Positions 60,524-61,635 of a stretch of DNA of 64,000 nucleotides are shown piece by piece. Under the pieces are notes generated by a model. That model worked only from the letters and a program-made list of their open reading frames with translations, was not told the DNA's origin and did not search any database. The DNA comes from Eledone cirrhosa (lineage: Eukaryota): contig OZ024740.1 of assembly GCA_964016885.1 (NCBI GenBank), positions 174,468,001-174,532,000 of the forward strand, read 5' to 3'. The position numbers and the translations under genes are program-made. Every line of letters starts with the position of its first letter. Position 1 is the first letter of the stretch.

Positions 60524-61635
60524 GAGAGAATTAGTATATCTACCAACATATGTATACAGATGTATACTCATGCTAGCAAATATATATGTTATGTCTTAGT
60601 ACCTTAGTGGTTCTATGCAGGGGGATGCAGAACAATTATATGAAAGACGTAAAATAAGAAAATTTTAAAAATTAAAAATCAACTTACTTACTAAAATTTT
60701 CACTCCAACTAATTAGTTTCTGTAAGGGGATAAATATAGTTACGTAAGATAACTATAGAGAATTCCTTACGTCATCAGGGAGTCTATTCTCAGCTAAGTT
60801 CCCAGGCAATGCGCGGACACTAGGAACCCATATAAAAATAATAATTCAGTGGATGGAACAAAGCTAGCGGGGACTAAATTCCAAAGCACTGAAAAAATTC
60901 ACTGCCTCTCTGGTCAGTGGCAGATTCTAAAGGATCAATCACGTGACACTGAGGTTAATCAGTGAGGAGTGGGGTGGTATTATGACAATATCCTACTACT
61001 ACCATGCAGAACAATTATATGAAAGACGTAAAATAAGAAAATTTTAAAAATTAAAAATCAACTTAATAAAATTTTAAAATTTTCTTATTTTACGTCTTTC
61101 ATATAATTGTTCTGCATACCCCTGCATAGAACCACTAAGGTACTAAGACATAACATATATATTTGCTAGCATGAGTATACATCTGTATACATATGTTGGT
61201 AGATATACTAATTCTCTATATTTATCTCCAAATTATTTGTTGAGTGAAACTTGCCAAAATTTACTGCTGTGATTCATGATAGTAGTAGGCTATTGTCATA
61301 ATACCACCCCACTCCTCACTGATTAACCTCAGTATCACGTGATTGATCCTTTAGAATCTGCCACTGACCAGAGAAGCAGTGAATTTTTCAGTGCTTTGGA
61401 ATTTAGTCCCCGCTAGCTTTGTTCCATCCACTGAATTATTATTTTTATATGGGTTCCTAGTGTCCGCGCATTGCCTGGGAACTTAGCTGAGAATAGACTC
61501 CCTGATGACGTAAGGAATTCTCTATAGTTATCTTACGTAACTATATTTATCCCCTTACAGAAACTAATTAGTTGGAGTGAAAATTTTAGTAAGTTGATTT
61601 TTAATTTTTAAAATGTTCTTATTTTACGTCTTTCA
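60524..61635. mobile_element. Non-coding retrozyme-like PLE unit: about 540 bp permuted monomer in inverted arrangement
   Basis: 61068-61218 inverts 60524-60670 and 61281-61635 inverts about 60637-61000; terminal redundancy on both arms; microsatellite flanks. Confidence 0.85.
61497..61578 (+). ncRNA. Type I hammerhead, intact core (identical mirror on the minus strand at 60702-60783)
   Basis: ACTCC-CTGATGA-c-GTAAGG...CCTTAC-a-GAAA-CTAATTA-GTT-GGAGT; palindromic ACTAATTAGT stem III; GUU triplet. Confidence 0.85.

What the first reader, a model, noticed from the sequence alone, without database searches (positions are those of the whole stretch)
60524..61635. Young, circularly permuted, about 540-nt non-coding monomer with an intact hammerhead on both strands
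Seen: the right arm starts and ends with the same TTCTTATTTTACGTCTTTCA segment (about 61083 and 61617), i.e. slightly more than one monomer. The left arm is the inverse in a different permutation, with its own redundancy (61004-61065 repeats 60626-60685). There is no ORF and the arms are nearly identical. Inference: reverse transcription of a circular or multimeric RNA with a template switch. This is the best retrozyme candidate in the window.
Basis: partly seen in the sequence, partly recalled or inferred. Interest (0 to 1): 0.75.

Follow-up and report, generated by a model that had tools for sequence, protein, structure and literature searches.

The report
Hammerhead retrozyme pasted from both ends
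This is one young copy of an abundant 534-base non-coding repeat carrying a predicted self-cutting RNA motif, likely pasted into TA repeats by a Penelope-type jumping gene that would copy its RNA from two fixed start points; it is a known kind of element, but its copies break off at the predicted cut site, likely a record of the ribozyme cutting in the animal.

Summary
It is one sense-strand type I hammerhead duplicated by a head-to-head insertion, not ribozymes of both polarities, and its core is slightly atypical. The family has over 5,600 ribozyme copies. Outer ends are fixed, not freely permuted: 97 of 112 two-armed insertions have one end at site A and one at site B, 114-116 nt apart (A+A 0, B+B 1), mostly in (TA)n. 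This is the Penelope 'tail' (two internal reverse-transcription starts); an autonomous Hydra-clade Penelope here follows the same rule (6 of 6). Inner arm ends pile up just 3' of the predicted cut (39 of 246, 11 expected), also at the second site reached, so partly cut linear multimers likely served as templates; a circle is neither needed nor excluded. (TC)n at B ends likely comes from enzyme stutter. The left arm's 'second permutation' is a 157-nt deletion. No partner element or RNA data found. The scan noted the two-end rule and cut-site footprints before, on other DNA of this genome. Verdict: new member of the metazoan non-LTR retrozymes / non-autonomous Penelope elements.

The parts
60406..60501 (.). 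(TA)n target, left flank
   Evidence: sequence
60502..60524 (-). (TC)n extension beyond the templated B end; likely made by RT stutter on the template's UCUC (inferred)
60525..61075 (-). Left arm, sense on minus strand. Outer end = fixed site B (monomer position about 178, counting from the cut site). Covers 178->1, 534->236, a 157-nt gap, then 78->7; inner end 6 nt short of the predicted cut site
60702..60783 (-). Type I hammerhead motif of the left arm; predicted cut after 60707
61004..61006 (-). CAT microhomology at the internal 157-nt deletion or template jump; the source of the 62-nt redundancy
61059..61075 (.). Head-to-head junction of the two arms in AAAATTTT-type microhomology
61066..61635 (+). 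Right arm: monomer position about 30 -> 534 -> 62; outer end = fixed site A
61083..61616 (+). One full 534-nt monomer, non-coding; folds better than shuffles as a circle (z about -4.9 sense, -1.5 antisense; 12 shuffles)
61102..61217 (+). 'Tail': the 114-116 nt between sites A and B; holds hairpins with some compensatory changes
61497..61578 (+). Type I hammerhead: stem I ACUCC/GGAGU, core CUGAUGA (61502) and GAAA, stem II GUAAGG/CCUUAC with 41-nt loop, palindromic stem III ACUAAUUAGU (61563-61572), predicted cut after 61573 (GUU)
61636..61656 (.). (TA)n target, right flank, running on into (CA)n and (TA)n
   Evidence: sequence

Best explanation
The locus is one back-to-back insertion of a non-coding 534-nt repeat family with two fixed outer ends, likely a non-autonomous passenger (non-LTR retrozyme) of a Hydra-type Penelope-like retrotransposon whose enzyme would nick both strands of a (TA)n tract and prime copying of the RNA at two fixed internal sites. 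Shown: family size, (TA)n flanks, fixed ends A and B with one of each per two-armed insertion, variable inner ends, excess of inner ends just 3' of the predicted cut, (TC)n tracts at B ends. Inferred steps: (1) tandem copies are transcribed into multimeric RNA; (2) the hammerhead, probably pairing as a dimer through its palindromic stem III, cuts only some sites; (3) a Penelope RT/endonuclease, probably a dimer, primes one target strand at A (UAUA) and the other at B (UCUCUAUA), stuttering on UCUC; (4) each cDNA runs upstream until it drops off or reaches a ribozyme-made 5' end; (5) the two cDNA 3' ends are joined, often at a short microhomology, giving the head-to-head arms. Here the B cDNA crossed one cut site, skipped or later lost 157 nt and ended 6 nt short of the next cut site; the A cDNA crossed one site and ended at about position 30.
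For: Ends: of 152 uncut, de-duplicated insertions, 112 are two-armed: A+B 97, A+A 0, B+B 1, one irregular end 14; 128 of 152 have (TA)n on both sides. Two fixed internal RT starts are the demonstrated origin of the Penelope tail, with both strands nicked and extended (PMC11167929). An autonomous 830-aa element with Hydra motifs (RWR, DKT, CxCX5C; against section 11 of PMC8557442) shows one of each end in 6 of 6 two-armed loci among 10 fetched, and extra TC units at 8 of 10 ends of the TAATCTCT type. Cut-site footprint: 39 of 246 inner ends in positions 1-17 against 4.5% at-risk share (p 8e-12, arms treated as independent; 34 of 143 insertions), 8 in the 17 nt before the site, three of which by eye start at G1; the equally AT-rich 18-51 stretch is at baseline. 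Genome-wide, 12 junctions have both arms ending within 0-3 nt of the cut against 2 for a control position. Both arms carry the same family haplotype (differences family-shared in 4-5% of cases, chance 5.5%, between insertions 34%). (TC)n of 4 or more units: 35 of 50 B ends with UCUC template, 11 of 43 without (p 2.6e-5).
Against: No autonomous element sharing the monomer's sequence was found, so the vehicle rests on architecture. No RNA data. The core has an extra A before G12 and a GUU triplet; the predicted monomer and dimer minimum-energy folds are not the active ones (active monomer -17.8 vs -20.3, double hammerhead -47.6 vs -50.2 kcal/mol). About 80% of passes read through the cut site, which fits a ligated circle as well as an uncut multimer. 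Only 9 of 246 arms end at positions 1-2; most of the excess lies at 7-17, where an AAAATTTT palindrome could attract junctions. The 17-nt window was chosen after seeing the data. The tail is about three times longer than the published 30-40 bp. 14 two-armed and 40 one-armed insertions do not show the full pattern. In vitro, the Anolis element showed no difference in start site between strands.
Confidence: 0.8

Rival explanations
1. Rolling-circle model: ribozyme-cut monomers are ligated to a 534-nt circle, which is the main RT template; tandem units come from RT going round the circle.
For: Most passes read through the site, 263 of 289 read-through junction contexts are exact (overlapping loci only partly de-duplicated). 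Units within an insertion share a haplotype. The monomer folds well as a circle. Related animal retrozymes give abundant circRNAs (PMC7229834).
Against: A circle has no 5' end, yet arms stop at the cut site, also at the second one reached (20 of 76). The 10-unit array has variants repeating every third unit, pointing to DNA-level duplication or a trimer. Units within one insertion often differ in the AT tract. The two start points are fixed.
Confidence: 0.25
2. One cDNA primed at B folds back or switches strand at a palindrome and is completed to A, as in the self-priming idea for Penelope inverted repeats.
For: Several junctions sit in palindromes (both arms at position 7 in L008, L030, L191). 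Palindromes at inverted junctions were read as self-priming in rotifer Penelopes (PMC3846280 passages).
Against: The two inner ends usually differ, and the inverted arm often holds sequence absent from the first arm, or is longer. The 12-bp palindrome just before the cut site is not a junction hotspot. It gives no reason for a fixed A end.
Confidence: 0.1
3. The copies are only 5'-truncated ends (pLTRs) of an autonomous Penelope, not a self-propagating non-coding family.
For: Autonomous Hydra-type elements here end 35-46 nt after their hammerhead in (TA)n, like end A. Penelope ORF pieces lie near many copies.
Against: Upstream of position 179 the copies continue as monomer, in tandem, across subfamilies 74-100% alike. 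No ORF is joined in pLTR geometry in the loci fetched; nearby ORFs are separated by (TA)n or have their own ribozymes. The monomer profile does not match the one autonomous family tested in full.
Confidence: 0.07
4. Assembly artefact (chimeric or duplicated contig).
For: No contig of the three public runs spans the locus (contigs of a repeat, so uninformative).
Against: The arms differ at 11 of 370 positions, the same architecture recurs in 97 insertions, and the ends obey a rule.
Confidence: 0.02

Closest known systems
Metazoan non-LTR retrozymes (Cervera and de la Pena 2020, PMC7229834, parts 2-4 of 6 read; Li, Clavereau and Pollet 2026, bioRxiv 10.64898/2026.07.22.740005, parts 1-3 of 5 read)
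   Same: Non-coding, low-GC tandem unit with one type I hammerhead per unit, thousands of copies, coexisting with Penelope elements.
   Different: 534 nt (170-400 nt in the 2020 paper, within the 51-972 bp of the 2026 preprint); mostly short head-to-head insertions with two fixed ends in (TA)n, no definable target duplication; circRNA untested; genomic signs of linear templates.
Hydra-clade Penelope-like elements (Craig et al. 2021, PMC8557442; passages and section 11 read)
   Same: (TA)n targeting, hammerhead shortly before the 3' end, partial tandems plus an inverted 5'-truncated copy, tail at one end only.
   Different: No ORF; tail 114-116 nt instead of 30-40 bp; no sequence link to a named autonomous family.
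Poseidon element of Anolis, in vitro (Frangieh et al. 2024, PMC11167929; parts 1-2 of 4 read)
   Same: Two internal RT start sites that define the tail; both target strands cut and extended; AT-rich target; predicted dimer.
   Different: There no strand difference in start site was seen, priming needed no homology, and no RNA-seq ends were found at the ribozyme site; here the two sites pair one-to-one per insertion, both carry TATA-like matches to the target, and genomic ends mark the cut site.
Penelope pLTR hammerheads (Cervera and de la Pena 2014, PMC4209133; abstract and passages)
   Same: Extra nucleotide between 9 and 10.1, G10.1-C11.1, palindromic helix III suited to dimers.
   Different: A further A between 11.1 and G12, a 41-nt loop II with its own hairpin, and a GUU triplet.
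L1 twin priming (recalled, not read; search listing only)
   Same: Two primers from the two target strands give an inverted insertion.
   Different: Here both priming sites are fixed and internal, and the B arm does not stop at site A (5 of 121 B arms end at 52-72).

Membership tests
Type I hammerhead ribozyme | Core C3-U4-G5-A6-N7-G8-A9 and G12-A13-A14, three stems, open stem I | tested here: met
   extra bases at the foot of stem II; no Rfam match
Type I hammerhead ribozyme | Self-cleavage 3' of N-U-H | tested here: inconclusive
   Indirect genomic footprint at the predicted site; no biochemical test possible
Metazoan non-LTR retrozyme | Short non-coding tandem unit with one type I hammerhead per unit | tested here: met
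Metazoan non-LTR retrozyme | Dispersed multi-copy family with monomers to multimers | tested here: met
Metazoan non-LTR retrozyme | Expressed as linear and circular monomer RNA | not testable with these tools
   no RNA holder listed
Metazoan non-LTR retrozyme | Target-site duplication longer than 4 bp when present | tested here: inconclusive
   flanks are (TA)n on both sides in 128 of 152; a duplication cannot be read
Non-autonomous Penelope-like element | Partial tandems with an inverted 5'-truncated copy | tested here: met
Non-autonomous Penelope-like element | Tail at one end only (two fixed ends) | tested here: met
   97 A+B, 0 A+A, 1 B+B of 112 two-armed; longer than published tails
Non-autonomous Penelope-like element | Sequence similarity to the pLTR of an autonomous family | tested here: inconclusive
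   none in the loci fetched or in one full Hydra family; most of the many Penelope families were not examined (64,476 first-look candidates, 150 scored)
Autonomous Penelope-like element | RT plus GIY-YIG ORF | tested here: not met
Viroid-like ambisense circle | Ribozymes in both polarities of one monomer | tested here: not met
   one motif per arm, same polarity within the monomer
Plant LTR retrozyme | Type III hammerhead in LTRs | tested here: not met
   type I motif in tandem units

The most novel reading that the evidence does not exclude
The family is a genomic record of the whole Penelope insertion cycle: an asymmetric RT dimer reads one RNA from two assigned start sites, one per target strand; the weak hammerhead does cut in the germ line and so caps insertion length, with partly cut linear multimers, not circles, as templates; and the telomerase-related RT reiterates a UC dinucleotide at initiation, creating new (TC)n/(GA)n microsatellites.
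Probability: 0.45. Interest if true: 0.65.

Novelty: new member of a known kind. Interest (0 to 1): 0.45.

Why it matters
The element class is known, but two questions are stated as open in the papers read: what Penelope-type hammerheads do (PMC8557442 calls it unclear; PMC11167929 found cleavage dispensable in vitro and no RNA ends at the site) and how the tandem/inverted structure and tail arise. This family gives countable genomic evidence on both and argues that the circle-template model of animal retrozymes (PMC7229834) cannot be the whole story. It also offers a small, ORF-free substrate with mapped start sites for an in vitro test, and a likely source of compound (TA)n(GA)n microsatellites.

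Tried and rejected
Rfam: no hammerhead family among the 150 listed of 205 window matches and nothing at the locus. Pfam found nothing in four Penelope fragments of the window. RNA evidence: no RNA holder listed; three runs of unknown kind, contigs only, one sample, show the family is present but not expression or locus integrity. Partner search: tblastn of Penelope pieces on loci, hammerheads downstream of endonuclease ends, relaxed ribozyme patterns (the loci were mapped and are family variants, one search was read from its listing only), a profile of the monomer on loci and on one Hydra family: no partner. The first cut-site count (44 of 246) was inflated by the query starting at the cut site; re-phasing gave 39, which I use. 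One strand was mis-set (L161), superseded. L1-style twin priming with a stop at site A was rejected (5 of 121). Dropped before counts: 7 insertions cut by locus ends, 2 under 40 nt, 1 complex one (L054) and arms with irregular outer ends. The TC test assigns templates by nearest unit; several 'no UCUC' rows were assigned to units with private changes (by eye 3 of 30 in the two true non-UCUC subfamilies). Literature searches listed no paper on this family, on cut-site footprints in Penelope copies or on TC stutter; the library is partial, and supplements of PMC8557442, PMC4209133 and PMC7229834, which I did not open, may list cephalopod families.

Full report
Observation. The locus 60525-61635 is a head-to-head pair of arms between (TA)n tracts. 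The right arm repeats TTCTTATTTTACGTCTTTCA at 61082 and 61616, a 534-nt period. The arms are 359/370 identical over their main overlap. There is no ORF. A descriptor scan finds one type I hammerhead per arm, predicted to cut after 61573 (+) and 60707 (-). It is the same sense motif seen twice. Below, positions count from the base after the cut.

The ribozyme. The core boxes are complete and stem III is the palindrome ACUAAUUAGU. There is an extra C after A9, a known trait of Penelope hammerheads (PMC4209133 passages), an extra A before G12, and a GUU triplet. Patterns for the motif give 3,950, 1,699 and 40 exact matches in the 3.0-Gb genome, with 0 in the reversed controls. Across 15 chosen variants 96% of stem cells pair and stems I and II show changes on both sides; shared ancestry is not controlled by that test. 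Rfam does not match. The active folds lie about 2.5 kcal/mol above the predicted minimum as monomer and as dimer, so weak cleavage is expected (inference).

The family. A DNA search gave 2,572 candidates, 40 scored, with the best full-length copies 92-98% alike and an array of about 10 units. Full units from the loci are 74-100% alike and 507-571 nt long. From 200 loci I mapped 161 distinct insertions and kept 152. Of 112 two-armed ones, 97 have one outer end at site A (position about 62, window 61635) and the other at site B (about 178, window 60525); none is A+A, one is B+B, 14 have one irregular end. 40 are one-armed. 128 of 152 have (TA)n on both sides. The A-end pattern alone has 3,099 matches. 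The samples come from best hits and from the first places on contig 1; 60 loci were anchored on an end and so are not selected for length.

What fixed ends mean. Penelope insertions are described as partial tandems with an inverted 5'-truncated copy and a 30-40 bp tail at one end (PMC8557442 passages). In vitro, an Anolis Penelope nicks and extends both target strands and starts reverse transcription at two internal RNA sites whose interval is the tail (PMC11167929). As a control in this genome I took an 830-aa element with the Hydra motifs RWR, DKT and CxCX5C. All 6 two-armed loci among 10 fetched have one of each of two fixed ends, 171 nt apart. It shares no detectable DNA with the monomer, so it shows the rule but is not the proven partner.

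Inner ends mark the cut site. Inner ends vary, but 39 of 246 fall in positions 1-17, where 11 are expected from the at-risk share (p 8e-12 with arms taken as independent; 34 of 143 insertions). Eight fall in the 17 nt before the site, three of which by eye begin at G1. Before re-phasing, the end-anchored set alone gave 16 of 71. The equally AT-rich stretch 18-51 is at baseline. In L015 and L164 both arms begin at G1, joined by one base; a genome-wide pattern finds 12 such junctions against 2 at a control position. The left arm of this locus ends at position 7. Against this reading: only 9 arms end at 1-2, many end in the AAAATTTT palindrome at 7-14, and the window width was chosen afterwards.

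Circle or linear multimer. A second-pass stop needs an RNA with one intact and one cut site, that is a linear multimer (inference). About 80% of passes read through, mostly without scars (263 of 289), which fits uncut multimers or ligated circles alike. Outside positions 7-47, units of one insertion differ by 2-3% and these differences are family-shared only at chance level (4-5% against 5.5%; 34% between insertions), so both arms come from one haplotype; that does not separate one RNA from two RNAs of one source. The 10-unit array repeats private variants every third unit. Within positions 7-47 a T>G change and a 4-nt indel often differ between units of one insertion; this is unexplained (mutation hotspot or mixed templates).

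Repeat synthesis at B. The template at B holds only UCUC, yet 35 of 50 such ends carry 4-42 TC units, against 11 of 43 ends assigned to other templates (by eye 3 of 30 in the two true non-UCUC subfamilies). The autonomous element shows extra TC units at 8 of 10 ends with a similar TAATCTCT context. The (GA)n at 60502-60524 is therefore likely made at insertion; a preference for existing compound repeats is not excluded without empty alleles.

This copy. The B arm has a 157-nt gap at a CAT microhomology, found in no other fetched locus; it produces the 62-nt redundancy. Outside the AT tract the arms differ at 4 of 418 compared sites, so the copy is young, though conversion between arms could lower this.

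Comparison and verdict. It works like a Penelope element without its ORF and meets the testable criteria of metazoan non-LTR retrozymes; circRNA and the partner remain untested or unfound. Earlier notes of this scan call the genome octopus-like; I did not test that. Those notes also report the two-end rule and cut-site footprints on other DNA; I had recorded both (notes 1-2) before reading them, and they are not independent support. Class: new member of a known kind; interest 0.45, for the mechanistic record more than for the element.

Noticed in passing
window 62357-62934: A second, unrelated head-to-head mini-element with a variant hammerhead (CUGGCGA core at 62778, palindromic stem III, predicted cut after 62853); relatives in other loci have CUGACGA and recur as tandem and inverted copies.
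   Followed up: partly
window 23090-26415 (-): Frameshifted Penelope-like element with Hydra-type motifs (DKT, CxCX5C), hammerhead at 23240 and an end 41 nt after the cut site in (TA)n.
   Followed up: partly
window 22690-23070: Long near-perfect palindrome centred near 22884, next to the Penelope end; pieces of a similar sequence flank other copies.
   Followed up: no
window 9338-9428, 9647-9678, 12106-12220, 21802-21867, 63368-63440: Further hammerhead-like motifs of other families; 9376 (-) and 9390 (+) form a tiny back-to-back pair.
   Followed up: no
L241-L250 (G000:C3:343567500-343576500 and others): Young autonomous Hydra-type Penelope family with intact 830-aa ORFs, a unit of about 4.3 kb, two fixed ends 171 nt apart and TC stutter; my scan found no canonical CUGANGA hammerhead near its ends.
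   Followed up: partly
L031 (G000:C4:181134546-181140081): Array of about 10 units with private variants repeating every third unit.
   Followed up: partly
monomer positions 7-47 (window 61580-61620): Recurrent T>G change and 4-nt TAAG indel that differ between units of the same insertion in many loci.
   Followed up: partly
window 4597-7542, 29379-32092, 41934-44396, 56635-59064, 17443-18099: Decayed LINE-like RT/endonuclease frames and a Tc1/mariner-like transposase fragment, named from recalled motifs only.
   Followed up: no
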